This document shows, one piece after another, positions 2,108 through 55,826 of a stretch of DNA of 64,000 nt. This DNA is from Chitinophagaceae bacterium (GTDB taxonomy: Bacteria; Bacteroidota; Bacteroidia; Chitinophagales; UBA10324). Numbering within the stretch: position 1 is the stretch's first letter; every line of letters begins with the position of its first letter. The stretch is taken from contig JADJAG010000005.1 of the NCBI GenBank assembly GCA_016704325.1, forward strand, positions 135,860 to 199,859, in the 5' to 3' direction. Both the position numbers and the translations under genes were made by a program. Under the pieces are notes generated by a model. That model made no database searches. It worked only from the letters and a program-made list of their open reading frames with translations, and was not told the origin of the DNA.

Positions 2108-2737
2108 ATGACTTCCCTCGATAAGGTAAGTGGTCTTCTTCTTTCACTGGCTAATTATCAGCAATTTGACGGTGAGTTCTTTCGTTTAAGACTCGATGAG
2201 AATCATATATTTTTAAAGGAAAATCAAATTAAGTTTGATGAATGTCACTTTTATTTCAGTACACTGAAAAACCTCAATTGGATAGCGATAACTAGCTTGC
2301 AAACAACAAATGCAGGTACGTATGCTGCCGAGTTTTCATTAACCTTTGAAGGAATTAAACAAGCACTATTGCTTCAGTCAGAAGGAATCACTTCAAACAA
2401 TTGCTTTGTGGCTATGTCTTTTCGAAATGAAACAAAGGCGATTAGACAGGCTATCAAAAACGCAATTTTTAGCACAGGCTTCAATGCAATACTTATTGAT
2501 GAATTGCATCACGATAGTGTTCAGCCGATTAATGATGCAATTATTACAGCTTTGAAAAAATCCCGATTTTGCTTTGCAGACTTTAACAATCAAGCAAGCG
2601 GCGTTTACTACGAGAGCGGCTTTGTAGCGGGTCAGAGTAAAAAGGTAATTTATTGTTGTCAGCAAGATCATTTTCAAAATTCACATTTTGATACAAATAA
2701 CTGTAGTCCAAATAAATTTATTTATGGCTATTCCTGA
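2108..2737 (+). CDS. Two-domain protein: an unknown N-terminal domain of about 95 aa plus a C-terminal nucleoside 2-deoxyribosyltransferase-like / TIR-like Rossmannoid domain.
   Basis: CFVAMSF...ILIDEL...INDAIITALKKSRFCFADFNNQASGVYYESGFVAGQSKKVIY...HFDT matches the FVxMxF ... D..(N)..VyYE.G.A...gK.vI pattern of the NDT/TIR-like clade, and the Glu of YYESG is retained. The gene is AT-rich: my hand count of two 60-nt lines gave 33-37% GC. Confidence 0.6.
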   Translation: MTSLDKVSGLLLSLANYQQFDGEFFRLRLDENHIFLKENQIKFDECHFYFSTLKNLNWIAITSLQTTNAGTYAAEFSLTFEGIKQALLLQSEGITSNNCFVAMSFRNETKAIRQAIKNAIFSTGFNAILIDELHHDSVQPINDAIITALKKSRFCFADFNNQASGVYYESGFVAGQSKKVIYCCQQDHFQNSHFDTNNCSPNKFIYGYS

Positions 2738-2792
2738 AATTGTGACGGATCATTTCTATTTTCATGATCGGTAAAATTTAAATGGATTATTT

Positions 2793-3638
2793 ATGGAGGA
2801 AACTGTAAAAAGAAAAAGCCGGGCGCATGAGGAACCGCGATTCAGGCAATACCTAGGAACGGTAATAAGTGGTTTTGTTTTGTTTGGCACAGTAGCCTTT
2901 ATTGTGATGGGTTTCTGGATCATCAATATTGTAGTAACGCACAATCCACCCGGTGAAGATCCAACTGATAAACTGATTAAAGTCCTTCAGACACTATTTA
3001 CAGCAATCCTGCCGCTTTTCGGAACCTGGATCGGAACGGTGTTGGCTTTTTATTATACAAAGGAGAACCTGCAGGCAGCCAATGAGAGCATCAGGGACCT
3101 GGTAGATAAGGTGACTTCTGCCAAGAAATTGGAATCCATAAAAGCAAAGGATGTAATGATACCGGTAGAGAAGCTGATCTATCTGGAGTTTAATTCAACC
3201 GATGACCCTGCGAAGTTCAGGCTGAAAGAAGATTTTCACGATTATGTGGTGAGAGAAAAAATTCAACGGGTAATTCTGTTGAATGAAAACAAGAATGCCC
3301 GTTATGTACTGCACAGCAGCCTTATTCAGCGATTTATTACGCTACAATATTTTAAGCGGGTAGCGAATCAACCTGCAGAGCATGGTGCAGAAAATAGCGA
3401 ACCGCTGACCGCTGCTACTTTTGCAGATATGCTGCAATCGGAAGATGAGCAGATCAAAGGTGTGATCAGGGAAGGTATTAATTTCATCAGTTTGGAAGCA
3501 ACCCTTGCCGTAGCGAAGTCGTTGATGAATAACAAATATTGCCAGGACGTCTTTATTACAAAAGGCGGACAGTCCAATGAGCCGGTCCTGGGTTGGATCA
3601 CCAATAAAACCATTGAGGATAACAGCATTGTTGATTGA
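2793..3638 (+). CDS. Membrane protein with two N-terminal TM helices followed by a CBS-domain pair.
   Basis: The hydrophobic segments are YLGTVISGFVLFGTVAFIVMGFWIINIVV and LQTLFTAILPLFGTWIGTVLAFYY. CBS1 is SIKAKDVMIPVEKLIYLE...VILLNENKNARYVLHSSLI and CBS2 is TFADML...INFISLEATLAVAKSLM...VFITKGGQSNEPVLGWITNKTI. Confidence 0.7.
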   Translation: MEETVKRKSRAHEEPRFRQYLGTVISGFVLFGTVAFIVMGFWIINIVVTHNPPGEDPTDKLIKVLQTLFTAILPLFGTWIGTVLAFYYTKENLQAANESIRDLVDKVTSAKKLESIKAKDVMIPVEKLIYLEFNSTDDPAKFRLKEDFHDYVVREKIQRVILLNENKNARYVLHSSLIQRFITLQYFKRVANQPAEHGAENSEPLTAATFADMLQSEDEQIKGVIREGINFISLEATLAVAKSLMNNKYCQDVFITKGGQSNEPVLGWITNKTIEDNSIVD

Positions 3639-3682
3639 TATTTCTCCTATAGTGCCTTCTGTTTTTTTATCAACTTTCGAAC

Positions 3683-5745
3683 ATGCATCCATTTGTAATA
3701 TATGTTACCTGGCATCCCTTGTTTGAAGATGGGAAACACTATGCAGAACGAATTTATCAAACCTTTAACAGAAATTTTGCTGATCCATTCAGCCGGAGCA
3801 TAGGCATTCCCGTCTTTTACAGATCCATCAGCAATACCGGAAGTGAAGAGGAAGTACCTGCTGCTATAGATCCCGATGGCGCTGAACACACCGCAATTGT
3901 ATTACTGGTAGATGATTGCATGGTCATTCACCGGCAACAATGGGCAGACTACCTGCAGCAACTGGTAGCTTTAGATAAGGGAAATCATCAGGTGAGAATC
4001 TATCCTGTCGCCATCTCGAAGACTGCATTCAGTGTGAGTGATGTGGTGAATGATAAGAATTTTGTAAGGGTATTTGAGAAAGAGACGACGGAACAGAAAG
4101 CGCGGTTTTTAACGGTAACCCTTGCTCACGAATTTTGCAGGCTGATACTTGGTTTTCAGAGAGCAACGGATCCTAAACAAGATTCATTACCAAGACTTAA
4201 GCTTTTTCTCAGCCATTCAAAAGCAGATGGAGTGGAGATCACCAAACTGTTGAAATACTGGATACAGGAATTCACCGGATTGGAGACCTTTTTTGATGCA
4301 ACCGATATTTCACCGGGAGAATTGTTTGCCGAAGCGATTGACAAAGGAGTGGGCAATTCAAGTTTGCTGGTGGTTCAGACCGATATCTTCAGTAGCCGTG
4401 AATGGTGCCGTGCAGAAGTGCTGGAAGCCAAGAGACACAATCGCCCGGTGGTGGTAGTGAATGCCCTTGATAAAGGAGAGTCCAGGAGTTTTCCATATAT
4501 GTGTAATGTTCCGGTTATACGTTGGAAAAATGAGAGTGCTGCTGATTTTTCATCATTGATTGAACGTATCATTTTAGCGGTGTTGCTCGAAACGCTGCGG
4601 CATGCTTACCAGGGCAAACTGATTGAACATCAGTTTAAGACGTTTCTGAAACCCGGAACAGATTACAAGTTGCTAAAGAATGCACCGGAATTACTCGACC
4701 TGGTAAATACAGAAGAAGCATCAGTCAATTTGAATCGACACTTCATTTATCCTGATCCTCCATTGGGTAATGGCGAGCTGCAGATCCTCAGGCGCTGCAT
4801 GCCGGGTGCGCAATTCAGCACACCCATTCAGCTGATTCGCGATGAAGCAAAAAAAAGTGCCTCACGGGATAAGTTTACAATTGGGCTCTCTATTTCGGAA
4901 TCTGAAAAAATGGAAGTGCGCGGATTGAGTACCGATCACCTGAAAGATGTAATGGTGGAAGCTGCACGTTACCTGTTGGCTTCAGGCTATTCTCTTGCAT
5001 ATGGTGGCGATATACATTACAGTGCGGGCTTCAATTTTGCCATGTTGCTGAAGGAGATGGTGATGACTTACCGTGCCGATTATAAAGGAGAAAACGCCAG
5101 GGTTACCAACTATGTGGCCTATCCAATCTTTCATACGATCAGCACTGCTTTGGAAGCGGAATTAATTGACGTGGTGCGCTTTATCCGTGTTCCCCGCCTG
5201 TTGACCTGGCCATAAATAAGAAGGACGACTGGCAACGGATTTTGAAAGCGGAAACGGTGCACGACCAATACCTTTTTGCCCGGTGCCTTACAGAAATGCG
5301 TTTGATTATGAATGAGTCTATTGATGCGCGAATAATCCTTGGCGGAAAGCAGACCGGGTATAAAGGTCGCTACCCCGGATTGATGGAAGAAGTATTGATA
5401 GCGATGACTTCTCATAAGCCGGTATTTATCATTGGTGCATTCGGAGGTTGTGCGGCGTCTGTTATTCAGGCTCTGCTTGGAGAGACACCGGAAACTTTAA
5501 CAAAAGAGTATCAATACAAAGTAGCACAATACAAAACGCTTGCAAACTATTATCAACAACAGGATGCTGGTGCGGTAAATGAAATCAACTACGAGAAGGT
5601 GGTTGGATTCTTCAACAGTGCAGGCATAGAAGGACTAAACAACGGATTGTCGCCTGATGAAAATAAAATGCTGTTTACCAGTGTTGATGCCGGGCTTGTG
5701 ATCTCTTTGCTTTTGAAAGGGCTGAGCAGTTGTGTAAACAAATGA
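3683..5745 (+). CDS. TIR-like / TIR / SLOG three-domain protein. As assembled it is split by a 1-nt frameshift at the C-run 5192-5195 (ORFs 3683..5215 and 5242..5745).
   Basis: Residues 1-100 are TIR-like (PFVIYVTWHP...GIPVFYRS...IVLLVDD). The central domain is a canonical TIR (KLFLSHSKADG...ETFFDATDISPGE...SSLLVVQTDIFSSREWCRAEVLEA; the WCRAE codons are 4403-4417). The C-terminal domain is SLOG-like (FTIGLSISESE...LAYGGD... in the first ORF and ARIILGGKQTGYKGRYPGLMEE...PVFIIGAFGGCAA in the second). The second frame is open from 5170, and adding one C gives ...RFIRVPPPVDLAINKKDDWQRILKAE... Confidence 0.75.
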
Positions 5746-5870
5746 CAGGCTTTTAGGTGTTCGGGAAGCAGCTTGCATAATAAATGTGCTGCCTGGCATT
5801 TTTGCCACCGCTCAACAAGCTTGTACTCCTGCTAATTTTGTATTTTCATCACAGCAATTAAAATAGATCT

Positions 5871-6921
5871 ATGCAGGAGCAGTCTTCAGGACGGACAAAC
5901 CGGGAACCAACCACTGCAAAACGCGGGCATTTTTTTGATTTTTTCTCAGGGATAGATCCTGAGATCAGGAATGAATTACCACCTGCCGATCATTTTCCAT
6001 ATATCCTTATCGGGTTCAGTAACCTTTTTGCCTCTGTATTGATAGGTATGTCGGCGTACCTGTTTTTTGAATCCATCCTGCATACGTATTATCTCGCCAT
6101 TTTTTTTGCCTGGCTCATTTTCAGCCTTGTCGTAATTGTGTTGCGGGCAATTACTACTTCCTTTCTTTCTAAAACCTACCAGTCAGTCAGGTATGTTTAC
6201 CTTATTTGCATTCCTGTTATCGCCATTGTATGCAGCCAGCCGGTTGGTATGTTTATTTCAGAAGTGAACCTTGTGCGGGAGAAACGAACCACCTTGATCA
6301 GTGATACCGTTCAGTGGACCAATGATACAGCTCAATTCAGACTAACAGCTGAAGCGTACCAGGATTCCGTTAAGTTGTTTGAAATGAGTGGCGTAAATGC
6401 AAGGATGAAAGCTGATTCGCTGTATAAAGTTATTGTGTCAAAGAAAAAGGATTCCATTGCCATTCAAAAAAGTATTCGCGCACTTCAGAACAACCTGCAG
6501 ATTGAGGAAAAAAAAGGCAAGAGCCCTGAGCAGACCAATAACAATAATTATGCAGCAGCAGTGGAAGAGACGAAGAAACTAAAACAACAACTTGATCAGC
6601 AAACAGGGGCATTGGAGTTGCTGAAAAGGGATTTGAGTAATGTGAGGATCTCCTACCAGATACTCAGCAACCCGATCAGTGAATTGCCGTATGTAAAGGA
6701 GTTGTACATCAATAAATACCAGGATTCAATTGCTTCTCAGAAGAAGCAGGCTGAAATGTTGGTATCGCGGATCAAAAGAGAATCGAGCACAGATTGCTGC
6801 GCTCGAAGGAGTAACCACCTGCACTACCTGTACCTTCAGTGAAAAGTTTGCTTATTACCGGCAACATGTATTTTCCAGTTGGCTACTTCTTTTCGTTAGC
6901 ATCACGTTTTTTTACTGTTAA
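5871..6921 (+). CDS. DUF4407-like membrane coiled-coil protein. As assembled it is broken by frameshifts at the A-run 6773-6776 and the T7 run 6907-6913, and its C-terminal limit is unresolved.
   Basis: The N-terminus FFDFFSGIDPEIRNELPPADHFPYILIGFSNLFASVLIGMSAYLF, the further TM segments, the long coiled coil, and then ...AQIAALEG...WLLLFVSITFF / LILPPYIISRSRNDLYHQLL follow the DUF4407 layout as I remember it. The third frame, open from 6900, has no stop before the ATG at 7065. Confidence 0.55.
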
Positions 6922-7064
6922 TTCTTTTCTTAATCCTTCCTCCGTATATTATTAGCAGGAGCCGGAATGACCTTTACCATCAGTTACTTGCTACGAAAGA
7001 GAACAGTGAAACCATTTCCATACGCAGAAAGGAGATAGAAGAAAAGTTTAAGATTGAAACGGAA

Positions 7065-8845
7065 ATGAAAACCGTAAAAGACCTGCTGCAAAAATTTGAC
7101 GGCGGAGGCAATGAGACCACACAGGACATCACCAACAATCTAACTTCAACCAATGATCCCAAATCGTATGAAGCTTTGGGTGATGTTCAGGTGAAGCTGG
7201 GTGACTATTTCAGAGCCGTGGAATTCTATGACCGCGCTATTTTCCTCGATCCGGAAGCTTCAGCGCCATGGAGAAAGAAAGCAGATGTTTATTCCGTTAT
7301 GGGAAGATATGCCGAAGAGCAACAGGCAAAGGCACGATATACGGAATTGTTGAGTGTGGAACGCTTTCGCAATAATCTCACACGTGCCACCAGGTTGTAT
7401 GCTGTGGAAGTAGCGAACCTGCCTTTCTATGGTTCTTTTTCCTGGCACTTGCGCGGCAGCATGAATATTATGCTGGGAAAAAACGGTTATGGAAAAAGTC
7501 ACCTCATGTCGATCATGCTGGCCTTATTGCAGGAAGAAGAGAAGTTATTGCGTGACCTGACCATGATGGACAAAGCCTCTCCAACTCCTGCTCCCTATTT
7601 TAAAATCTCTTTTCAGTCGGATCATGAGCGCGATGTGCCCTTGATGGAATCGTTGCAGCAACAGGTGGAGGAAAATCAAAATTGCGATCAGCGTTTCTTG
7701 CACGGCAGCGTGCGGCGAGGACTCCTGCTGATCAGACTGTAACAGAAATTGCACCACCTGTTACAACGGAATGGGATGGTGAATTGATCAGGCTGCAAAA
7801 GCAACTAGAACTGTTGGAAGGAATAGCTTACTTTGATAAGCTGGGTATTCAGTCTTCCTATGGTAAAATCCCTGTACTGGCAATTCCTGATTCGAGGTTC
7901 ATAAATAAATCAGCGGAGTCCACTTCCATTAGAAATGATGAACGATCTAAGAAAATACTGGAAAACGGAGCATACCAGTTTATGCTGCAGGTACCGTATG
8001 AAGATGTGATTCAGAATTTATTGAATACCATCTCTACCATCTACCTTGATGAAAGGAATTTTGAGGATGAAATATTTCAGCTCATCCGCCGTGTTTTCAA
8101 ACGCCTTACCGGAAGTGAATTTGTGTGGGATACTATTCAGCGTACAGAAGATAATTCCGGTTTTATTATCAGGGTGAAGACAGAAGGCGCAGATACTTCG
8201 CTTCCGATACAGAAAGCCTCGCAGGGCACATTATCCGTTGTCGCGATGATTGGAACGATGTATCATTATATGTCGCTTCGTTATCCTGCTGTTTCGCGCA
8301 AACAGGTGACCCGGCAACCGGCTATTATTTTTATTGATGAGATTGATGCGCACCTGCATCCGAGCTGGCAGCAAAAGATTATCGGAATTTTGCGTAATGA
8401 GTTTCCGAATGTACAATTCATTATTTCAGCGCACAGCCCGCTGGTGATAGCCGGATGCAAAGAAGAAGAAGTGTGTGTGCTGCGAAAGCGCGACAAAGGA
8501 TTTACGATGGAGATCATTGAATCTAACCTGATTGGTAAACCCATCGCCGATATCTTCAGGATGATTTTTGAAGTGGAAGAAAAGAATGAAATGTATTTGC
8601 AGCTGGCAGCGCTGATGCCCTTTAAAAATTCCATTAAATCGAAAGCGCAGGCTCTCCGTGAAAAAACGACACGCGATGAAAAGGAAGAGCAACAACTGCA
8701 GGAGTTAGAGCAGCAGATTGAGAATTTTGTTTACCTCGAACAGTTTGATACCATCCGTTCTACCTTTGAAGAACTGGAAGATTTGAAGAATGCGAATGAG
8801 ACGTTGAAGATGGAGGTGGAGCGGTTGCGGGCGAGGTTGGGGTGA
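7065..8845 (+). CDS. TPR-containing ABC-type (AAA_15/AAA_21-like) ATPase with a C-terminal coiled coil. As assembled it is split by a frameshift at the A-run 7678-7681 (ORFs 7065..7742 and 7682..8845).
   Basis: A TPR-like segment is YEALGDVQVKLGDYFRAVEFYDRAIFLDPEA. The Walker A motif GKNGYGKS is at 7475-7498. Walker B and the D-loop are AIIFIDEIDAHLHPSWQ, followed by FIISAHSPLVI. Adding one A restores ...QQQVEENQKLRSAFLARQRAA... Confidence 0.7.
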
Positions 8846-9157
8846 ATGGTTAAATTGTTGAATTGTTGAATTGTTAAATGGTTAAATGGTTAAATGGTTA
8901 AATGGTTAAATGGTTAAATGGTTAAATGGTTGAATGGTTGAATGCTTAAATTGTTAAATGGTTGCAGCGAAGCTGATGCGATGGGGAGGTTGATGAAAAT
9001 TTTAAATTTGAAAATATTGAATATTGAATATTGGATATTGGATATTGAGTGTTGAATATTCAATATTCAATATTCAACACTCAATATTCAACACTCAATA
9101 CTCAATACTAACGACTTCCGACTAATTACTTCCGACTAACTACTAACTACTAACTAC
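8845..9157. repeat. Nested low-complexity block: 15 units of the 8-mer AATGGTTA, the hairpin CAGC-GAA-GCTG, a 7-mer array ATTGAAT mirrored by ATTCAAT (a palindrome with arms of about 45 bp), then CGACTTCCGACTAA x2 and ACTAACT x3 abutting the next ATG.
   Basis: I counted the units directly. The 8-mer units run 8845-8964, the palindrome is centred near 9057/9058, and the ACTAACT run ends at 9157. The block has the same architecture as the 195-202 bp MITE at 28749 and 56538, but greatly expanded. Confidence 0.85.
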
Positions 9158-10149
9158 ATGGATACCAAAGTAGAATCTCTCGTAAAAATGTTTGGTGAAA
9201 ATGCCCTGACGGACATTGAAACCAACATTGAGCCGTTGATAAAAAAGTATTTTAATGCAGAGTGGGATGCTGTGTATCAACAGGAGTTTTTTACAAAGCA
9301 TTATGAACTGATTCGCGGTTACCGGAAGAAGCTGGATGAGCTGACGGGCAATGCGTTGAATACAAAGGAAAAGATTATTGCCGCATTGAGTTTCTGCTGG
9401 AAGGAAGCTAATTTCAATAAATCGGAGGCCACGATATTTTATTCAAAAATGGAATTATTTCACCGGCTGGTGAATGAAATGTTGAAGAACGAATGGACGC
9501 CGAAACAGCAGGAACACTTCAATACGGTTGCCGTGATATTCCGTGATTATCACAATTATTTTCTTTCCTATACCAACCATCTTTCGCAGGCCATCAACCA
9601 GGCATACAAGATTATCTATGAAGCGATTTTGAATAAGGAAGATTATTCCGGCGAAGATTTCAGCAAGCGCAACCTGCTGGCCAAAGCCTTTCACCGTTTC
9701 CTTCACCTGAAAAATATCCGCAAGGGTTTCTTCGACCTCGACTCCATCCGGCTGGCGCAGGGCATTGACGATAAAGTGACTGCCAATGCCAGCAAATCCA
9801 TAGCCTTTATTCAATTGATTTCCATGGCATCTTTTGAATACAATGAACCCAACTGGAGTTATATTGAATACCTGACGTATACAAAAGCAAGAGACGTTTT
9901 CAAACAGCAAAACGACCACCGTTCCGGTTTCTCTCCTTTACTTTTTATGTTTTCACAGAAAAGAATGCATTACCGCCTGAATCGCTGATCCCCGACGATT
10001 ATAAAGTTTGGTCTGCCTCCACGAATGAGAAGCTGCACTGCGATCTTACGGCTATCAATACCTACGAAGATTTTGTGAAGGAAATTGAAAGACTGATCAA
10101 TGCCATTATCAATTATAAATCTGAAATGGTGAATAGTATTCCGGATTGA
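9158..10149 (+). CDS. Helical N-terminal domain plus a TIR-like domain. As assembled it is frameshifted near the T-run 9950-9953, and the track ORF 9158..9988 continues in another frame to a TGA at 10147-10149.
   Basis: NYFLSYTNHL...KGFFDLDSIRLAQGIDDKVTANASKSIAFIQLISMASFEYNEPNWSYIEYL follows the TIR pattern F.SY...FfD...i..G..i...i..S...i.liS......W...E (the WSYIE codons are 9854-9868). The alternative frame reads FTEKNALPPESLIPDDYKVWSASTNEKLHCDLTAINTYEDFVKEIERLINAIINYKSEMVNSIPD*. The gene is AT-rich: my hand count of two lines gave about 33-35% GC. Confidence 0.55.
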
Positions 10150-10193
10150 AAGGAGGCAGCATGGGGGACTATTTTTATGTGCGCAGCCTCTTT

Positions 10194-10336
10194 AGTCATC
10201 GGATGACTATAATTCAATGTATTGATTGAGCAGTTTTACTTTAAGTCATCCGATGACTTTCGGCCGGTTGTAGTCATCGGATGACTTGTATTCAGTAGGT
10301 TGATTTTCCAAATTTGTTATAAGTCATCCGATAACT
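10194..10336. repeat. Four copies of the 15-bp palindrome AGTCATC[G/C]GATGACT, arranged as two tandem units of about 78 bp.
   Basis: The copies are at 10194-10208 (centre G), 10244-10258 (centre C), 10272-10286 (centre G) and 10322-10336 (degenerate, centre C). The spacings are 50, 28 and 50 bp. The inner segments are related (attcaatgtattgatt versus attcagtaggttgatt). Confidence 0.85.
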
Positions 10337-10376
10337 ATCATTGAGACAAGATGTAAGTAAAATTTGGAATAGGAAA

Positions 10377-11087
10377 CTAAATAAACTCCTCCACAGAAAT
10401 CTTCAATACCTCAAACGCTTTTTTAGCAGCCAATTTCTCCGCGTTTTTTTTATTCGTGTCTTCGCCTTCTCCGTATTCTTCTCCATCAATTATTGCCGCA
10501 ACTTTATACAAAGCACGATGGCGGTGACGGGAGTGGTTTTTACGGCGAAAGTGAGGAGCGTCCTGATTTCTGCGCCCATTCCAGCAGCTTGCTTTTATAA
10601 TTGAATTCGCTGATCTCCAACTCCCCGATATCGAGAAATGGTTTCACAATTTTTTTGATGATAAAATTGTGCGCGCTCTTATATCCTTTGTCGAGATAGA
10701 CTGCTCCTACCAGGGCTTCCAGCGCATTGCCGGTAAGTGACTTTTTATTGATCAAGGGATCTGCTGAACTATAGGAAAGATATAAGTCAATGCCCATCTT
10801 ATGAGAAACGGTCTTCAATTGGCTCCTGCTTACCATTTTTGAGCGGATATCAGTCAGGTAGCCTTCATCTTTGTAGGGGAATTTTTAAATAGGTAATCAG
10901 CTATTACGGCACCGAGTACGGCATCGCCTAAAAATTCGAGGCGTTCATTGCTTTCGTATATTTCTTCGGCAGAAGAACTGTGGCGAAAGGCCATTTCATA
11001 CAATAACAGGTTGGAAGGCGAAATGCCGGTGAGTTCCTTTACCTGCGAGTAGAACGCTTTCTTTCCTGAAAATAATCGTCGAATCAA
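10377..11087 (-). CDS. rnc: Ribonuclease III. As assembled it has at least two frameshifts.
   Basis: The signature [20 protein letters not shown] is present. Adding one base at the T5 run 10882-10886 restores [25 protein letters not shown]. The C-terminal dsRBD (...[45 protein letters not shown]) lies in a third frame that ends at the stop 10379-10377. Confidence 0.85.
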
Positions 11088-11169: not shown

Positions 11170-12426
<1,257 letters not shown>

Positions 12427-49760: not shown

Positions 49761-52700
49761 CTATTTCACAATTACCCTGACGCCTTCCGAATGGCTGGTA
49801 AACTCCGGTGCATACATGCATTGAATAGTGGTGATGCCATTTGAAAAATCACCTTTCAATTGCACGCGCAGTGGATATTCAAACACATAGGTTCCTTTAC
49901 GTAAATAATCAAAGAAGAAATTTGTTGCGGCATCCCGGGTCTCTTCATAGTATCCTAATCCATCCTGCCATTGATACCCGCTCAATACATTCATTGGTTC
50001 AAAACAGGCTGCCCGCATATCTTTCATATGAACGTACTCCATATCACGGTCTGTCCGCAATTCTACAACAACTTTTACAAGATCACCGGGATGGAGGATC
50101 GTGGAAGTAGTGATAGGTTCAAGCACCGGGCCGGCAGCACTGTTACGTTGCAGGTATAATTTCTTTTTCAATGAAAGCGGTGTTGCTGCTGGTGTAATTT
50201 TATCGAGTTGCTCAAAATACTGCCAGTAAACAGCACCCCAGCTTACACCATCCTCACTGCTTTTGCGGACAACTTTTATTGATCCCATTTGCGGTGTGAT
50301 CTCATTTTCCTTCCAGGAAGTTTTGTAATAGCCTGTTCCGGGCTCTGCATTCGTCTTTGCTAAATCAACTACCTGCTTGCCAAGCGAAACCGTTATCGCA
50401 GGTTCATTCATCAGCCAGGTGCTGCCTCTGAGTAATAAGGCATATACAGCCTCTGCTGTTGCCTTGGTGGATTTCCATTCATTGGTTTGCTTCTGCTTCA
50501 GCAACCAAAGTTTCATTGCATCAACAGATGCCACGTCATTGCCTGCTTCATCAAAGGCTTCAATCAGCAAAGCCTGTGTTTCAACAGGAGCTTCATACCA
50601 ATAATAGCCACTGCTGTTGCTTTTCCAATACATGCCAAGCTCTTCATGTACGATAGCATTTTCTTTCAGTGATTTAAGAATGGAAGCCGCAGTTTTTTTA
50701 TCACCGGATCTGTACAATGCAAGGGCAATCATTCCCTGTGCATAGATGCCTTGCTTGGTCCAGTATTGCTGCACCTGCGATTTGTAGTAGTCGGATGCTT
50801 TTTTATTTTTTTCGGCAATAGGAATATCATTGAAATAACTTCTCGCATAAAAATAATACGCAGCATGATAACTGAGATTATTCTGATCTGTATTCACTTT
50901 ATATTTAATGAGGTTATCGTAATCTTCCTGTATTCGAGCATCAAGATATGGAATAGCCCTTTCCACCATTGTGCGTGTTTTAATTTCTGTGCCGGCAATA
51001 TTTAATTGTTGCAGATGACCAATGCCGGCAAGTATGTATTGTGTTATATAACGGTTGTCAGGCCCTCCTGCAAACCACGCCCAGCCTCCGTTTGGTGTCT
51101 GCAGTTGCTCGAGTTGCTGTAATGCCGCACTCATTTCACTGCTCATCCGGTTAAGATCGAAGAGCAGGGCAATTCTTTTTTTGCGTTCCGATTCGTCCTG
51201 CGATTGTAATACCCAGGGTGTTTCCTGCAAAAGCAATGATTTCAGCTCCTGGTTTTTTTCGAGATTGGATAGGAGGGCATCCGGGTTTAAGTTTCTCCAT
51301 TGGTCAAACACCTGCTTAATCTTTGGATTTGAATTCGCGATGTGACTTGCCAATGCATTTGCATAGAAACGATTGAAGGTTTGCTCCGAACATTGATACG
51401 GATATTCCATCAGGTAAGGCAATGCCTGCACAGCATACCAGGCAGGATTGCTGGTGAATTCTAAGGTGAGATGGTAATTTTTTAGAGTTGAGGAAGCTCC
51501 GGACTGCAGCAACTTCGTGAAAGAATAATTCTTTTCGGCATTGCCACGAATGTTTATTGGTAATGATTCAGTCACTAACATTTTATTGGATAAAACCGGC
51601 AGTACATTTTCTTCACCGTCTGATTGATTGCCTGCTTTTGCAATCAACCGGTATGCAATTGCTTCAAAGCCTTCCGGCACGGTGAGGGCCCATGACAATG
51701 CCGTACTTTGTCCTTTCTCAACAGTGAATGCCAAAACATTGCTTGTATTTCCAAAATCCATATCCACAGGTTGCATGGTAAGGGCGTCAAACAATTGCAG
51801 CGTGGCTGTTCCTGATAATGCATTGCCGGATAGATTCGTGACTTTTCCTGCAAATTGTATTTTATCGCCTTCGCGGAAAAAGCGTGGTGCGTTTGGAATG
51901 GCCATTAACTCTTTTTGCGTTACCAGTTCTTTAGAGGTTTGCGCATAGCGGAGATCTGCTGTATGTGCAAATCCAAGCAGCTTCCAGCGGGTGAGTGCTT
52001 CGGGAATGGTAAAAGAGATGATGACATTGCCTGCTGAGTCAGTTCGCAGTTGGGGGAAGAAGAAAGCCGTCTCCTGCAAATTTTTGCGTACAGCCACGGT
52101 CTCTAAGCCGGTATCTTTCTTTACCTCCGTTACAGCAACGGAGTCTTCAGCACTTTTGTCCTCAGATTTACGCACCGCATTCTTTGAAACTACATTGTTG
52201 TCAAACAGCATCATTTCTGCTTGCGAGCCCCCATCCATAGCCGCTTCGCTTCGCATCAGGTATCGCTGCCTCATTTCCAGCCCAAACCAGTTCAATTGGT
52301 TATAGGAAGGCATAAAATAAGTGGCAGCGCCGGAACCGTCAACATCAAAAAATTCACTGCCTACATCACTAAAGCAGTTTCCGGGTTCCCATCTGGCATA
52401 TGGATAATAACGCTGGTAAATATCAAATTCCCAGCTAGGTGTCCGAAACGCATCCAACGATGCATCATAGAGTGTGGCAACCATTTCAGCCGAAACAGCT
52501 TCACCTTTTGCTCCTGATATTTTCAGTTTCCATTCTTCATTTTGTCCGGGTAACAATTTATCACGGAATGATTCGAATGATATTTTTAATTCTTTGCAGG
52601 TATATGGAACGGCAATGGTTTGATTGAATGAATAAACCCTTCCATGTTTTACAGCGAAGGCACTCACATAAATTCCACCGGCCATGTTTTCAGTAACAGG

Positions 52701-55700
52701 TATTTCAAACGTCTCTTTGCCCTTTTTCCAATCCATCAGTTTTAGGTCGTTGATATTTTTACCTGACACCTGGTAGATAACAGTAAGATCTTTCTCACTT
52801 GTGCCAGCCTGGAAGTTGATGGTGGTGCCTGCTATTGCTTTTTCAGTTAATGCAGGAAACCAAAAAGTTTGCAATAATGGAAGCTGCTTGTCTTTCGCAG
52901 CATATACCGTGAAGTATTTATGCATTACAAAATCTTCCCCATACGTATCCTTGCTCTTCAATTCAAGATGGTATTTACCTTGTGGCAATGCGGGTAAGGC
53001 TATTTTGTTTGTGTTGCCTGTGTTAAAGGCAATGTCATCATAAGTTGATTTTACATTCCATTTGGTGAAGTCATCTTCCTGGTCATATATATCATATGGA
53101 AATGATTTATAGAACGCTTCTTTTGTCATCACAAACTGATCCGGATTTTTCCAAAGACGCTTGCGAAAAATCCTGTCAGGCTGTTCCAATCCATAGATGA
53201 CAATTGTTCCGGAAGCAGGCTCAAATACCTGGTTCAGGTTCACTGAAGTGATCATGATATTAGAAAGTGAATCTGCTGATACTTCATCCGGGATGGTCAG
53301 TTCCACATTAACAGATACATAACCAACTGCTACATTGGTTTCTGAACTATGTGTTTCACCACTGATGTCCGCTACATCAGCGATGATGCTGTATTCAAAT
53401 TGCGGTTTGTCTTTTGCCGGAATTTTTAAATCAGGAATAGCCTTAAAGGAAACGGTAAAAGCACCATTAGCATCGGTAATGCTGGTTCCGTTCGCGATTT
53501 CCATTTCCGGTGCGAACCGGTCATAACCGGAACGCTTCCCGTAATAATACCATATGGGTAACCTAGCCCGCCTTACCACACGATAATTTACCGTTGCTCC
53601 ATCAATATTTGCACCTGCATATGATTTTGCACTTCCTGTTACGGTTACCATTTCATTCAGCCGCCAACTGCCTTTCAATGAATCGAACACCACTTCAAAC
53701 TTCGGTCGTTTGTATTCCTCAACCGAGAACGAAGTGCTTCCCGAACCATTTGTCAACGACATTTCTCCATTTAATCCACTGCCGGGCGCAGTAAAGGAAC
53801 CCTGGAAACTCCCGAAATCATTGGTGGTGAGCGAAAGTTGATGGACTTTTTGTCCATTCACATCATTAAAAACAACAACTGAATTGAAACCTGTTTTCAA
53901 GGCATGCTCATCACCTGTTTCTTCCAGAACAATTCCTTTGAAGTAAATAGTTTGTCCGGGCCGGTAGATGGCGCGGTCGGTAAAGAAAATGGTGCGCAGG
54001 GTCTTTTGATTTTCCTCACGTTCTTTATAGAGGTAGAAATAATCATCGCAGCGCAATTTATCCTCACCGGATGAAAATTCGACCTGGAAATTGTGTTGGT
54101 CAGTAAGTGCCGGTATCTCAAGATATCCTTGTTGATTGGTCACATAGTTTCCAATTTCTTTCCAGAGATAGGTTCTGTTTTGGCTTTCATATTCCCTGAC
54201 CAGCAATTTCGCTCCGGCTTTATAGATGGGTTTGCCGGATTCGCGGTTCAAAACATAAAAACTGTAATGGTCCTTATTGCGTTTGCTGAGATAACTTAAG
54301 TTGGAAATGTAAGTGGCTGCTTTGGTGATACCACTTTCTGTCATCGAAAAATTTTCAGCAGCAGATGAAAGAATAAGGTAACGTCCAAGCGGCAATGCCG
54401 GAATTTTTATCTCTGCCGCATGCATTTGATAGTCACCTGCATCGGGGAAAGTTTGCGACCAGGATAATACCGCCGGTTCCTGCAAATAGCGTTTCATCCC
54501 TTCTTCCGGATTTGCACGATCCTCACTTGCTGCAAGTTCCGGAGTATACTTTATAATCCGGTAGAATATTTTATTGACATTTTTGTATTCCATGAGGCCA
54601 CGGAAAGGATGGCCTGGTTGATTGATCCGCTCTATAGTGAGTGAAAAAGCTTTACGCGTAATTTCTATGCGCAACGCTTTACAACTTTTTGCCGCATTGG
54701 ATGCAGGAAAACGGGTTAGTACTTTGTCGCAATAACTCAAAGCTATCACCTTATCATTCCGGAAGCCCGGCGCAGTTTCCGGATCATACTTATTGCCATT
54801 TGCTGCATAAAATGCTGCCAGCTGGTAAGAAACGGTTGCACTTGCCGAGTCGTTCTGAAAGCGTTGTTCTAATTCCTTTAAACCATCTGCATACAACGAA
54901 TCTTTTAATTCGTACACGCTGTTTGTGTGTAAAAAGAAGAAACGCTTTAATTCGGCATCCACCAATGCATCAGGCGAAGCGTCGTGCAGGTGAAACGAAA
55001 TCAATTTCTGAAGGGTTTGTAAAGCGAGGAGTTTTCCGGAAAGTGAATCCTTGCTGGTAATATTCAATCTTGTAAACTGTGCTGAAGGCTGGAAAACTTC
55101 TGTTCCTTCAAGTGTAAACTTATAAGCCGGTTGCGTGACATATGCTTCTTCATTCATGAAAAAATCTATTGCCCGATGTGCGAGAAAATCATACAAGGTC
55201 GGACGATAAACAACAGACATATTTCCTTCTTGCAGGATGGCTGCAAAGGGTTCGATAGCCGTTTGCTGCAATGAATCAGAGTTTTCCAGTGAAGCACGGT
55301 ACAAGGTGGTAGCATGCTGCGTAATGTGATGCAAATCCCAGGTTTCAATATCTTTTGATTCAGGGTCTGCCATTTGTGTCCGTTCTGAAAAGCGCCAGCG
55401 GTTCTCTTCGTAATAACTCCAGTAGAGTTCTGCTGCGGCAGACTGCAAAATGTTCTTTGCCGGGAAATCACTTTTACTGATTGCAGTTTCAAAACTTTCC
55501 AATACTTTTTCAAATCCGCCTTCTTCCAGCACCTGCTTGTATTTCACAGTATAGATCAGTGATTTTACAGTTTGTGGTGCGTTCTCTGATTTGTTTGCCA
55601 GGTCATAAATCTCCAGTGCTTTTTCCAGAGCAGATTTTGTGAGGTTCTGCGCTTCCAGCGAATCCACTTTTTTCCAAAGTTTTTCGTACCGGTCATAATT

Positions 55701-55826
55701 TATGGGTGGTGGCATATGGTTTTTTTTGGATTCAAAAGCAAAAAGCAGTAACAGGTTAAACAGCAACAGGCCAATCAAGGTCCCGCCTGCAACTTTTGAT
55801 GAAGCGGATAGGGAATATTTTTTCAT
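49761..55826 (-). CDS. Alpha-2-macroglobulin family protein, 2021 aa, with a CxEQ thioester motif.
   Basis: YPYQCSEQTFNRF (the CSEQ codons are 51392-51381) parallels the YPYGCLEQ of enterobacterial A2M. The protein has a long array of MG-like beta domains and an N-terminal membrane anchor. Confidence 0.85.
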   Translation of the reverse strand: MKKYSLSASSKVAGGTLIGLLLFNLLLLFAFESKKNHMPPPINYDRYEKLWKKVDSLEAQNLTKSALEKALEIYDLANKSENAPQTVKSLIYTVKYKQVLEEGGFEKVLESFETAISKSDFPAKNILQSAAAELYWSYYEENRWRFSERTQMADPESKDIETWDLHHITQHATTLYRASLENSDSLQQTAIEPFAAILQEGNMSVVYRPTLYDFLAHRAIDFFMNEEAYVTQPAYKFTLEGTEVFQPSAQFTRLNITSKDSLSGKLLALQTLQKLISFHLHDASPDALVDAELKRFFFLHTNSVYELKDSLYADGLKELEQRFQNDSASATVSYQLAAFYAANGNKYDPETAPGFRNDKVIALSYCDKVLTRFPASNAAKSCKALRIEITRKAFSLTIERINQPGHPFRGLMEYKNVNKIFYRIIKYTPELAASEDRANPEEGMKRYLQEPAVLSWSQTFPDAGDYQMHAAEIKIPALPLGRYLILSSAAENFSMTESGITKAATYISNLSYLSKRNKDHYSFYVLNRESGKPIYKAGAKLLVREYESQNRTYLWKEIGNYVTNQQGYLEIPALTDQHNFQVEFSSGEDKLRCDDYFYLYKEREENQKTLRTIFFTDRAIYRPGQTIYFKGIVLEETGDEHALKTGFNSVVVFNDVNGQKVHQLSLTTNDFGSFQGSFTAPGSGLNGEMSLTNGSGSTSFSVEEYKRPKFEVVFDSLKGSWRLNEMVTVTGSAKSYAGANIDGATVNYRVVRRARLPIWYYYGKRSGYDRFAPEMEIANGTSITDANGAFTVSFKAIPDLKIPAKDKPQFEYSIIADVADISGETHSSETNVAVGYVSVNVELTIPDEVSADSLSNIMITSVNLNQVFEPASGTIVIYGLEQPDRIFRKRLWKNPDQFVMTKEAFYKSFPYDIYDQEDDFTKWNVKSTYDDIAFNTGNTNKIALPALPQGKYHLELKSKDTYGEDFVMHKYFTVYAAKDKQLPLLQTFWFPALTEKAIAGTTINFQAGTSEKDLTVIYQVSGKNINDLKLMDWKKGKETFEIPVTENMAGGIYVSAFAVKHGRVYSFNQTIAVPYTCKELKISFESFRDKLLPGQNEEWKLKISGAKGEAVSAEMVATLYDASLDAFRTPSWEFDIYQRYYPYARWEPGNCFSDVGSEFFDVDGSGAATYFMPSYNQLNWFGLEMRQRYLMRSEAAMDGGSQAEMMLFDNNVVSKNAVRKSEDKSAEDSVAVTEVKKDTGLETVAVRKNLQETAFFFPQLRTDSAGNVIISFTIPEALTRWKLLGFAHTADLRYAQTSKELVTQKELMAIPNAPRFFREGDKIQFAGKVTNLSGNALSGTATLQLFDALTMQPVDMDFGNTSNVLAFTVEKGQSTALSWALTVPEGFEAIAYRLIAKAGNQSDGEENVLPVLSNKMLVTESLPINIRGNAEKNYSFTKLLQSGASSTLKNYHLTLEFTSNPAWYAVQALPYLMEYPYQCSEQTFNRFYANALASHIANSNPKIKQVFDQWRNLNPDALLSNLEKNQELKSLLLQETPWVLQSQDESERKKRIALLFDLNRMSSEMSAALQQLEQLQTPNGGWAWFAGGPDNRYITQYILAGIGHLQQLNIAGTEIKTRTMVERAIPYLDARIQEDYDNLIKYKVNTDQNNLSYHAAYYFYARSYFNDIPIAEKNKKASDYYKSQVQQYWTKQGIYAQGMIALALYRSGDKKTAASILKSLKENAIVHEELGMYWKSNSSGYYWYEAPVETQALLIEAFDEAGNDVASVDAMKLWLLKQKQTNEWKSTKATAEAVYALLLRGSTWLMNEPAITVSLGKQVVDLAKTNAEPGTGYYKTSWKENEITPQMGSIKVVRKSSEDGVSWGAVYWQYFEQLDKITPAATPLSLKKKLYLQRNSAAGPVLEPITTSTILHPGDLVKVVVELRTDRDMEYVHMKDMRAACFEPMNVLSGYQWQDGLGYYEETRDAATNFFFDYLRKGTYVFEYPLRVQLKGDFSNGITTIQCMYAPEFTSHSEGVRVIVK

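What the first reader, a model, noticed from the sequence alone, without database searches (positions are those of the whole stretch)
2793..3638. A 2-TM protein fused to a CBS pair directly upstream of the TIR-SLOG gene, a possible ligand-gated membrane effector
CBS pairs are adenosyl-ligand sensors (AMP/ATP, SAM, NAD-related compounds, c-di-AMP). Two-TM modules next to SLOG or SMODS genes are the predicted pore-forming SLATT-type effectors. A 2TM+CBS protein sits 44 bp upstream of a TIR-SLOG gene and 55 bp downstream of an NDT/TIR-like gene. I do not recognise this combination from described defence systems. It could couple a TIR-derived nucleotide, or NAD/ATP depletion, to membrane permeabilisation.
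Basis: inference. Interest (0 to 1): 0.7.

Follow-up and report, generated by a model that had tools for sequence, protein, structure and literature searches.

The report
Membrane CBS-sensor protein leading TIR defence operons
This gene encodes an uncharacterised two-helix membrane protein with a nucleotide-sensing CBS pair; its close relatives almost always head operons of TIR or SIR2 immune enzymes, so it is probably a new nucleotide-gated membrane-damaging arm of bacterial anti-phage defence, although the partner genes in this genome are broken.

Summary
ORF 2793-3638 (+) is an intact 281-aa protein with two transmembrane (TM) helices, a long stalk helix and a cytoplasmic CBS pair. The model has pLDDT 89.8 and its best PDB matches are all CBS pairs. 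The sequence itself misses Pfam's CBS threshold.

The gene sits 44 bp upstream of a TIR-SLOG gene. It belongs to an unnamed family of about 1,300 clusters at 50% identity, with a fixed architecture. The family is absent from phage collections, PADLOC and the searched literature.

Among relatives at least 38.5% identical, 14 of 16 loci with adequate flanks carry a TIR or SIR2 gene within 5 kb. The gene order and partner types vary. The rate falls to 19% at 34-38.5% identity and 2% below that.

A second recurring module pairs the protein with a lipoprotein, a small helical protein and a cell-wall hydrolase that lacks a signal peptide. This resembles a phage lysis cassette.

I read the protein as a CBS-gated, holin-like membrane effector acting downstream of NADase activity (confidence 0.45). 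SLATT homology is not supported. The upstream NDT-like gene is a truncated, strain-specific neighbour. In this window the TIR-SLOG gene, the ATPase and its partner are all disrupted. I class it as a new variant of a known kind.

The parts
2793..3638 (+). Intact gene for the 281-aa 2TM + CBS-pair protein (called T in this report)
   Evidence: ORF. Aligns end to end with a 282-aa orthologue at 78% identity. AF2 pLDDT 89.8.
2850..2936 (+). TM helix 1 (residues 20-48). It is strongly hydrophobic and poorly conserved. The N-terminal tail before it has 6 K/R and 4 D/E, which suggests it faces the cytoplasm.
   Evidence: Hydropathy and conservation; helix 14-50 in the model.
2973..3056 (+). TM helix 2 (residues 61-88), the most conserved segment of the family: LPLFGTWIGTVLAFYY. 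P74, G81, T82, L84 and A85 are invariant, and the segment carries a GxxxGxxxA packing motif.
   Evidence: Alignment A1. Mean majority fraction is 0.64, against 0.36 for TM1.
3057..3140 (+). Conserved cytoplasmic stalk helix (residues 89-116) that joins TM2 to the CBS pair as one continuous helix.
   Evidence: Helix 58-115 in the model; conservation 0.54.
3141..3635 (+). CBS pair (Bateman module): CBS1 at about residues 117-190, a variable linker at 191-214, and CBS2 at 215-281. Conserved residues are R159, H174, D252, T256, G267, W268 and T270.
   Evidence: The 50 best Foldseek hits shown are all CBS pairs. The family profile hits CBS proteins in the PDB. 20 of 57 members hit PF00571.
3683..5745 (+). 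TIR-SLOG gene (SLOG cluster 2, LD_cluster2). It is 77% and 61% identical over two segments to an intact 688-aa orthologue. Here it is split by a 1-nt deletion in a run of C at about 5192.
   Evidence: Pfam; tblastn to the L081 orthologue; comparison with the 95%-identical contig L096, where the frame stays open.
5871..8845 (+). Membrane-anchored TPR + ABC-type ATPase (AAA_15/AAA_21, PtuA-like), 994 aa in the orthologue. Here it has in-frame stops at 6840-6842 and 6897-6899 and a frameshift near 7690. The ORF that hits 'DUF4407' is only its N-terminal TM and coiled-coil part.
   Evidence: tblastn to the L081 ATPase; translation; Pfam and PADLOC.
9158..10146 (+). Partner gene of the ATPase. It is 330 aa in the orthologue and has no known domain. 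Here it is frameshifted near 9900.
   Evidence: tblastn: residues 1-269 map to 9158-9961 and residues 246-330 map to 9874-10146, in another frame. No Pfam or PADLOC hit.
2108..2737 (+). Truncated nucleoside 2-deoxyribosyltransferase-like gene. It is a strain-specific neighbour and not part of the cassette. Sister-strain contigs diverge from the window upstream of position 2713.
   Evidence: Homologues are 311-339 aa with PF05014. The window copy covers only residues ~97-297. The breakpoint lies at 2713.

Best explanation
T is an inner-membrane protein with both ends in the cytoplasm. It has two TM helices, and the second runs on as a rigid stalk into a cytoplasmic CBS pair.

I propose that it is the membrane-damaging output of a modular anti-phage system built around NAD-consuming TIR or SIR2 enzymes. 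In the resting state the CBS pair holds the TM hairpin inactive. When the neighbouring NADase fires, an adenine-nucleotide ligand changes. This could be a rise in ADPR or a cyclic ADPR isomer, or a fall in NAD+ or ATP. The CBS pair then changes its ligand state or its dimer geometry. The stalk passes this to the highly conserved GxxxG-bearing TM2, and the protein oligomerises or opens. The membrane is depolarised. In loci that also encode a cell-wall hydrolase without a signal peptide, the hydrolase is let through, as with a holin, and the infected cell dies.

Shown: the architecture, the family, and the gene linkage.

Inferred: the effector role, the ligand, and the gating mechanism.

In this window the system is probably inactive, or the assembly is faulty in this stretch. 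T is intact, but the TIR-SLOG gene, the ATPase and its partner are all disrupted.
For: Architecture.

Linkage. T is followed on the same strand, at gaps from 3 bp to 246 bp, by one of three modules:
- TIR-SLOG, fused or split (window; L001; L081; L087).
- A PtuA-like ATPase plus a ~320-aa partner, with TIR and SLOG genes nearby (L084; L088; L089; L090).
- SIR2-TIR or TIR plus an nSTAND1 NTPase (L085; L086; L002 and L015).

In L091 the order is TIR, SLOG, T, TIR, with T overlapping its neighbours at both ends. L093 lies in an island with GmrSD, DndB, AbiTii and an integrase.

Counts: 14 of 16 loci at >=38.5% identity have a TIR or SIR2 gene within 5 kb. SIR2 + nSTAND1 partners also occur in Acidobacteriota and Gammaproteobacteria.

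Support for the effector role. In 11 loci among the first 94 examined, and in 13 of 91 with adequate flanks, T follows a lipoprotein and a small helical protein. Nine of those 11 loci (10 of the 91) also have a GH46-like, Amidase_2 or GH19-like enzyme with no signal peptide next to the module.

The CBS pair behaves as a portable sensor module. In L084 the same type of CBS pair is fused to the C-terminus of the ATPase (44% identity, E 1e-42).

The family looks accessory and mobile:
- It occurs in 241 of 185,579 species genomes, across many phyla.
- One copy lies directly after a Tn3 transposase and resolvase on a Thauera plasmid.
- None was found in phage collections.

Precedent: TM effectors with a cytoplasmic signal-binding domain are established partners of TIR proteins, as in Thoeris types II, V, VI and VII (preprint 10.64898/2025.12.03.692087).
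Against: - There is no experiment, and the ligand is unknown.
- The window protein falls below Pfam's CBS threshold.
- The position of the canonical ribose-binding Asp (GhhTxxD) is Thr in the TIR-linked clade and variable elsewhere.
- Most distant family members have no detectable NADase neighbour. Any ligand common to the whole family must therefore be a general metabolite, or the function has diverged between clades.
- In type IX Thoeris a TIR-SLOG protein is itself listed as the effector, so a second effector is not obviously needed.
- No separate ThsB-like TIR gene accompanies the window cassette.
- A two-helix hairpin forms a pore only if it assembles into higher oligomers. I could not model this.
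Confidence: 0.45

Rival explanations
1. T is an input or regulatory subunit and not the killing device. It would be a membrane-anchored nucleotide sensor that tethers, licenses or restrains the TIR/SIR2 enzymes or the membrane ATPase. It might report energy state or envelope perturbation at phage entry.
For: In every characterised protein the CBS pair is a regulatory module. This is established knowledge, and the Foldseek matches are CorC, AMPK gamma, DarB and IMPDH-type pairs. In 14 of the 15 TIR/SIR2-linked arrangements read in detail, T precedes its downstream partner module; the exception is L091, where TIR and SLOG come first. The same CBS pair is fused to the ATPase in L084, where it must regulate an enzyme and not a pore. 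TIR-SLOG is already listed as an effector in type IX Thoeris.
Against: The most conserved part of the family is TM2 and the stalk, not a surface for a variable partner. The partners are unrelated proteins (TIR-SLOG, SIR2-TIR, ATPase), which is hard to reconcile with a specific protein-protein regulator. The loci with signal-less muralytic enzymes and no NADase fit a membrane-opening role better.
Confidence: 0.25
2. T is a housekeeping membrane protein, for example a small CBS-regulated ion or solute channel. Its position next to TIR genes reflects shared residence in variable genomic islands and not a shared function.
For: At the thresholds used, 70 of 91 well-flanked loci (77%) have no TIR, SIR2 or SLOG gene within 5 kb. 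The Pfam scan of 140 immediate neighbours lists 198 families, and those shown are mostly metabolic or housekeeping. CBS-regulated transporters such as CorC, MgtE and ClC are common.
Against: The linkage is 88% within the orthologous clade. It survives changes of gene order, partner type, flanking genes and phylum. Start and stop codons overlap in L091. The distribution is patchy: 241 of 185,579 species. One copy is Tn3 cargo on a plasmid. No conserved housekeeping neighbour was found.
Confidence: 0.12
3. The N-terminal hairpin is a highly divergent SLATT domain. T would then be a SLATT effector that has acquired a CBS sensor.
For: It has two TM helices and is linked to TIR, SLOG and SIR2 genes. 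SLATT_fungal is the single best-scoring Pfam family for the isolated N-terminal region, hit by 3 of 40 sequences with a best E of 1.7e-4. S_4TM is hit by 3 of 40 (also 2 of 57).
Against: None of the bacterial SLATT_1 to SLATT_6 models appears among the 25 most frequently matched families listed. The SLATT_fungal hits are rare. They sit among comparable hits to unrelated TM families: DUF2207_C in 11 of 40 sequences, plus DUF1345, DUF996 and a holin family. The window sequence itself does not hit SLATT. The N-terminal profile retrieves only 2TM+CBS proteins among its best 150 matches.
Confidence: 0.1

Closest known systems
Type II Thoeris effector (TM helices + Macro domain, activated by His-ADPR to form a membrane pore)
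   Same: N-terminal TM helices are joined to a C-terminal cytoplasmic domain from a family that binds ADP-ribose or adenosine-type ligands. The gene lies next to a TIR gene. Killing is predicted to occur at the membrane (for the description).
   Different: The sensor is a CBS pair and not a Macro domain, and there is no sequence relationship. The ligand is unknown. T also occurs with SIR2 + STAND partners and without any NADase.
SLATT 2TM effectors (CBASS; type VII Thoeris ThsH)
   Same: Both have a two-helix membrane hairpin, are linked to TIR or SLOG genes, and are predicted to be gated by a nucleotide.
   Different: There is no significant profile match. T carries a discrete, recognisable sensor domain, which SLATT proteins lack.
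CBS-regulated membrane proteins (CNNM/CorC, MgtE, ClC, OpuA/OpuC)
   Same: A cytoplasmic Bateman module is coupled to a membrane domain. CorC/CNNM CBS pairs are among the best structural matches. The ATPase-CBS fusion in L084 mirrors the ATPase + CBS layout of OpuA and OpuC (the comparison rests on general knowledge).
   Different: The membrane part is a minimal two-helix hairpin unrelated to DUF21, MgtE or ClC folds. The genomic context is defence-like and not transport-like.
Phage holin-endolysin-spanin lysis cassettes
   Same: In 11 of the first 94 loci examined, a small membrane protein (T) lies next to a lipoprotein and a small helical protein. In 9 of these it also lies next to a GH46-like, Amidase_2 or GH19-like enzyme with no signal peptide.
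   Different: T was not found in 2.9 million viral contigs or 50,697 phage genomes. It carries a CBS sensor. The Bacteroidales operon is chromosomal and syntenic.
Type IX Thoeris (ThsB + TIR-SLOG effector ThsJ) and type III Thoeris (several TIRs + SLOG effector)
   Same: The downstream neighbour is a TIR + SLOG protein. Some T loci carry multi-TIR + SLOG operons.
   Different: This comparison concerns the neighbour and not T. The window has no separate ThsB gene. The SLOG belongs to Pfam cluster 2. The NCBIfam type III hit is far below its cut-off (28 against 220 bits).

Membership tests
CBS pair (Bateman module, Pfam PF00571 x2) | Sequence match to the CBS profile | tested here: inconclusive
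   The window protein has no hit at E<=0.1. 20 of 57 family members hit PF00571 at E<=0.01, with a best E of 2.1e-8. The family profile hits CBS proteins in the PDB at E 7e-5.
CBS pair (Bateman module, Pfam PF00571 x2) | Two tandem beta-alpha-beta-beta-alpha units that fold into one module | tested here: met
   The AF2 model has pLDDT 96-98 over most of residues 111-280. The 50 best Foldseek PDB hits shown are all CBS pairs (MJ0922, KpsF, CorC, CNNM, AMPK gamma, DarB), with probability 1.0 and target-normalised TM-score up to 0.74.
CBS pair (Bateman module, Pfam PF00571 x2) | Binds an adenosine-containing ligand in the cleft | not testable with these tools
   Conserved residues R159, H174, D252, T256 and T270 are candidate cleft residues. 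The canonical Asp of GhhTxxD is Thr in this clade.
SLATT (SMODS- and SLOG-associating 2TM effector) | Significant match to a SLATT profile | tested here: not met
   Only SLATT_fungal is hit, by 3 of 40 N-terminal sequences (best E 1.7e-4), among comparable hits to unrelated TM families. SLATT_1 to SLATT_6 are not among the 25 families listed. The window sequence has no SLATT hit.
SLATT (SMODS- and SLOG-associating 2TM effector) | Two TM helices and gene linkage to SLOG, TIR or SMODS genes | tested here: met
   for the two TM helices. for the linkage.
Thoeris-type TIR signalling system (T as its effector) | A TIR-domain gene in the same operon | tested here: met
   The gap is 44 bp in the window. 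14 of 16 orthologous loci have a TIR or SIR2 gene within 5 kb. T overlaps its neighbours at both ends in L091.
Thoeris-type TIR signalling system (T as its effector) | The TIR makes a signal molecule that binds and activates the effector, and the system defends against phage | not testable with these tools
   This needs biochemistry and phage assays. The TIR of the neighbour keeps the SxWCxxE motif (SREWCRAE, read from the translation).
Holin | Small membrane protein encoded beside an endolysin that lacks a signal peptide | tested here: inconclusive
   This holds in 9 of the first 94 loci examined (GH46-like in 6, Amidase_2 in 2, GH19-like in 1) and in 10 of 91 well-flanked loci. It does not hold in the window.
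Holin | Encoded by phages or prophages | tested here: not met
   No relative was found in IMG/VR viral contigs or in INPHARED phage genomes.

The most novel reading that the evidence does not exclude
The 2TM-CBS family is a new class of immune effector in which a CBS pair acts as receptor. The signal would be either a TIR- or SIR2-derived ADP-ribose molecule or the NAD+/adenylate collapse those enzymes cause. The receptor would gate a holin-like hairpin that depolarises the cell. In some lineages it would also release host-encoded cell-wall hydrolases that lack signal peptides, making a host-owned, nucleotide-triggered lysis cassette. This would be the first CBS domain shown to read an anti-phage signal, and it would add an effector type to the Thoeris-like systems.
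Probability: 0.35. Interest if true: 0.8.

Novelty: new variant of a known kind. Interest (0 to 1): 0.62.

Why it matters
TM effectors gated by a cytoplasmic signal-binding domain recur in bacterial immunity: CBASS, Pycsar, type III CRISPR, and Thoeris types II, V, VI and VII. None of the sources searched uses a CBS pair, which is one of the most widespread adenine-nucleotide sensors in biology.

A CBS-gated effector would widen the set of domains known to read immune nucleotides. It might also show how NAD+ depletion is coupled to a second killing step.

The family of about 1,300 clusters currently has no name, no Pfam model for its membrane half and no annotation, so this work gives it a testable function. 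The link to muralytic enzymes without signal peptides hints at host-encoded programmed lysis in Bacteroidota, where lysis mechanisms are poorly known.

For this particular genome the practical importance is small, because the partner genes are damaged.

Tried and rejected
1. SLATT membership. Pfam scans of full-length and N-terminal sequences gave only sparse sub-threshold SLATT_fungal hits among generic TM noise. I could not run a profile-profile comparison because no SLATT sequences were available.
2. Apparent long T proteins (400-650 aa) in GC-rich loci. These are artefacts of ORF extension upstream of the true start and not fusions. The genuinely longer members carry extra TM helices, a duplicated hairpin or low-complexity linker inserts, and no new domains.
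3. Single-sequence AlphaFold2 of the upstream NDT-like protein. The model was unusable (pLDDT 37). PDB sequence search found nothing. A homologue search settled its identity instead.
4. The canonical ribose-binding Asp as a clue to the ligand. The position is too variable across the family to interpret.
5. Promoter and terminator scan. It found fewer sites than expected by chance and nothing between T and TIR-SLOG. The sigma-70 consensus is probably unsuitable for this organism.
6. Phage origin. None was found.
7. Other large unknown proteins downstream of T (L092, L093, L019, L029). They are unrelated to each other and have no Pfam hit.
8. Burroughs et al. 2015, the paper that defined SLATT and SLOG, is not held in the library.
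9. I considered treating the 'DUF4407' ORF as a separate membrane effector. I rejected this because it is the N-terminal part of the disrupted ATPase gene.
Full report
**Observation**

The ORF at 2793-3638 (+) exists as described: 281 aa with an ATG start. It is a real gene. A search of 5.8 billion proteins returned 116 relatives, from 99% identity down to about 24%. The closest full-length orthologue is 282 aa and 78% identical over its whole length, so the window copy is intact.

Hydropathy gives two hydrophobic segments, at residues 20-48 and 61-88. An AlphaFold2 model built on a 57-sequence alignment has mean pLDDT 89.8. It shows helix 14-50, a short loop, and one continuous helix 58-115 that leaves the membrane and leads into a compact alpha/beta domain covering roughly residues 117-280.

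The N-terminal tail has 6 K/R against 4 D/E, and the loop has 1 against 3. I therefore place both termini, and with them the CBS pair, in the cytoplasm. This is an inference from the positive-inside rule.

**Is it a CBS pair?**

The window protein gets no Pfam CBS hit even at E 0.1. Three further results confirm it:
- 20 of 57 family members hit PF00571 at E<=0.01.
- The family profile finds CBS proteins in the PDB, with MJ1225 at E 7e-5.
- The 50 best Foldseek PDB matches to the model are all CBS pairs: MJ0922, KpsF, CorC/CNNM, AMPK gamma, CBSX2 and DarB/CbpB. All have probability 1.0 and target-normalised TM-scores of mostly 0.6-0.74.

**The family**

The best conserved part is not the CBS pair. 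It is TM2 and the stalk, LPLxGTWxGTVLAxYFSKENLxAAN, with P74, G81, T82, L84 and A85 invariant and a GxxxGxxxA motif.

A profile of the N-terminal 118 residues was searched against 1.84 billion cluster representatives. It found 1,322 proteins at E<=1e-3 and 1,015 at E<=1e-10. Nearly all of the best 150 are either 240-300 aa or fragments. The longer ones have extra TM helices, a duplicated hairpin or low-complexity inserts in the inter-CBS linker, and never a different domain. So this is a discrete family with a fixed architecture. Neither Pfam, NCBIfam nor PADLOC gave the window protein a significant match.

The family occurs in 241 of 185,579 species-level genomes, spread over Bacteroidota, Acidobacteriota, Pseudomonadota, Actinomycetota, Planctomycetota and others. 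It was not found in IMG/VR viral contigs or in INPHARED phage genomes. One copy lies directly after a Tn3 transposase and resolvase on a Thauera plasmid.

**Neighbours in the window**

*TIR-SLOG.* The downstream gene starts 44 bp after T. It carries TIR (4.8e-9) and SLOG cluster 2 (3.6e-27 and 4e-50). It is split into two ORFs. A 95%-identical sister-strain contig (L096) keeps the frame open, and the difference is a single base missing from a run of C near position 5192.

*ATPase.* The next three ORFs (5871-8845) are one gene. It is colinear with a 994-aa orthologue that has an N-terminal TM and coiled-coil region, TPR repeats and an AAA_15/AAA_21 ATPase similar to Septu PtuA. The window copy has two in-frame stops and a frameshift. 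The ORF that hits 'DUF4407' is simply its N-terminal part.

*Partner of the ATPase.* The following gene (9158-10146), 330 aa in the orthologue and without known domains, is also frameshifted.

*Upstream gene.* The upstream gene is a truncated nucleoside 2-deoxyribosyltransferase-like gene. Its homologues are 311-339 aa and carry PF05014, while the window copy covers only residues ~97-297. Sister-strain contigs diverge from the window upstream of position 2713 and carry a thioredoxin gene there. The NDT-like gene is therefore not part of the cassette.

*State of the cassette.* T is the only undamaged gene between 2.1 and 11.1 kb, and even rnc is split. Long ORFs elsewhere in the window are intact. 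I cannot tell real decay from local assembly error.

**Are orthologues linked to TIR or SLOG genes?**

I read the genomic context of 12 further distinct homologues of 36-78% identity with precomputed Pfam annotation. In 11 of the 12, T is followed on the same strand, or flanked, by a TIR-containing module. Gaps range from overlapping codons to 246 bp. Three arrangements recur:
- TIR-SLOG, fused or split: L081 and L087, as in the window and L001.
- The PtuA-like ATPase and its ~320-aa partner, with TIR and SLOG genes a few kb on: L084, L088, L089, L090.
- SIR2-TIR or TIR plus an nSTAND1 NTPase: L085 (Flavisolibacter ginsenosidimutans), L086, and also L002 and L003.

In L091 the order is TIR, SLOG, T, TIR, with T overlapping its neighbours at both ends. 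L093 sits in an island with GmrSD, DndB, AbiTii and an integrase. SIR2 plus nSTAND1-WD40 follows T in Acidobacteriota and Gammaproteobacteria (L015, L030).

With the genome and metagenome loci pooled and redundant copies removed, 91 loci have at least 2.5 kb on both sides of T. The share with a TIR, SIR2 or SLOG gene within 5 kb depends on identity to the window protein:

| Identity to window T | Loci with TIR/SIR2/SLOG within 5 kb |
|---|---|
| >=38.5% | 14 of 16 (88%) |
| 34-38.5% | 6 of 31 (19%) |
| <34% | 1 of 44 (2%) |
| All | 21 of 91 (23%) |

Two caveats apply. The partner profiles were seeded from the close clade, so divergent NADases may be missed. At least one pair of loci (L087 and L103) is probably the same organism. 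An independent Pfam scan of 140 immediate neighbours in the genome set found SIR2_2 six times, TIR_2 three times and FRG three times among 198 families, most of those listed being housekeeping.

The linkage is strong and survives rearrangement within the orthologous clade. It is not a property of the whole family.

**A second recurring context**

In four close-clade loci (L087-L090) and seven Bacteroidales loci, T is preceded by a 155-199-aa lipoprotein with a lipobox cysteine and by an 88-111-aa helical protein. The L089 pair is homologous to the Bacteroidales pair.

Beside this trio lies a small cell-wall-hydrolase-like enzyme with no signal peptide or TM segment. It is GH46-like (224 aa, directly downstream of T) in six Bacteroidales loci, Amidase_2 (191 aa) in L088 and L090, and GH19-like (193 aa) in L089. 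A membrane protein next to a signal-less muralytic enzyme and a lipoprotein is the layout of a phage lysis cassette, yet T has no phage relatives. I take this as independent, circumstantial support for a membrane-opening role.

**A domain fusion**

In L084 the PtuA-like ATPase ends in a CBS pair of the T type, including the end of the stalk. It is 44% identical to the window protein (E 1e-42), and a separate T gene lies just upstream. The CBS pair is therefore a portable module that can be attached to a different output. This fits a sensor domain that reads a ligand shared by the system.

**Mechanism**

I propose that T is a CBS-gated, holin-like effector. A change in an adenine-nucleotide ligand linked to TIR or SIR2 activity alters the CBS module. 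The stalk passes this to the conserved TM2, and the hairpins assemble or open.

T occurs with unrelated NADases and also without any. The simplest ligand is therefore a general one, such as ADPR, NAD+ or ATP, and not a dedicated cyclic isomer. I hold this only loosely.

The main rival is that T is a regulator or sensor acting upstream of its partners. Lesser rivals are a housekeeping channel that merely lives in islands, and a divergent SLATT domain.

**Comparison with known systems**

The closest functional analogue is the type II Thoeris effector, which has TM helices and a Macro domain that binds His-ADPR. Thoeris types V, VI and VII also use TM effectors (preprint 10.64898/2025.12.03.692087). 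That survey lists 29 predicted effector types. The word 'CBS' does not occur in its text or supplements.

TIR-SLOG proteins are listed in the same survey as the effector of type IX Thoeris. This complicates a simple 'TIR makes the signal, T kills' model.

SLATT membership is not supported. Three literature searches pairing CBS with defence-related terms found nothing relevant, and a search for 'TIR-SLOG' returned only one review.

**Verdict**

The association with NADase defence genes is real for the orthologous clade, and the effector role is plausible but untested.

It is a new variant of a known kind: a sensor-domain-plus-TM effector in a TIR or SIR2 system, here with a CBS pair as the sensor. 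The interest lies in the family and not in this decayed locus.

Noticed in passing
window 2108-11087: Every gene in this stretch except T is damaged. The NDT-like gene is truncated at both ends. TIR-SLOG has a 1-nt deletion in a run of C near 5192. The ATPase has two in-frame stops (6840-6842, 6897-6899) and a frameshift near 7690. Its partner is frameshifted near 9900. rnc (10540-11087, minus strand) is split into two ORFs. Long ORFs elsewhere in the window are intact, so this is either local gene decay or a low-quality stretch of assembly.
   Followed up: partly
window 2713: Sister-strain metagenome contigs (95% identical) match the window only from position 2713 onwards. Upstream of it they carry a thioredoxin gene in place of the NDT-like gene. 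This marks a recombination or insertion junction 80 bp before T.
   Followed up: yes
L084:8878-11877: A PtuA-like membrane ATPase carries a C-terminal CBS pair of the T type (44% identity, E 1e-42). A separate T gene lies immediately upstream.
   Followed up: yes
L008:7379-9677; L088:6494-8897; L089:5977-8526; L090:5517-7951: A recurring module consists of a lipoprotein (155-199 aa), a small helical protein (88-111 aa), T, and a muralytic-like enzyme without a signal peptide (GH46-like, Amidase_2 or GH19-like). It resembles a lysis cassette but is chromosomal.
   Followed up: partly
L085:13192-16912 and L090:11998-14951 (minus strand): A convergent operon (TIR, LD_cluster2 SLOG, HMUDK_hel, ThsB_TIR, Nmad2) lies next to the T cassette. 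It resembles the multi-TIR plus SLOG layout reported for type III Thoeris.
   Followed up: no
L094 (Thauera aminoaromatica plasmid pTha01, record 11522-12298): A T homologue (30% identity) lies directly after a Tn3-family transposase and a resolvase, which suggests it is transposon cargo. About 2 kb after it has no listed gene.
   Followed up: no
L074 (Rhodococcus koreensis) 7319-7876 and 9644-10591: Two T paralogues lie about 2 kb apart in one genome.
   Followed up: no
L002:2327-10362: Four genes are tightly packed on one strand in a Parafilimonas MAG: T, SIR2-TIR, nSTAND1 NTPase and TIR-SLOG. This joins two of the three partner modules in one operon-like block.
   Followed up: partly
window 49761-55826 (minus strand): A very long intact ORF (2,021 aa) that I did not examine.
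   Followed up: no
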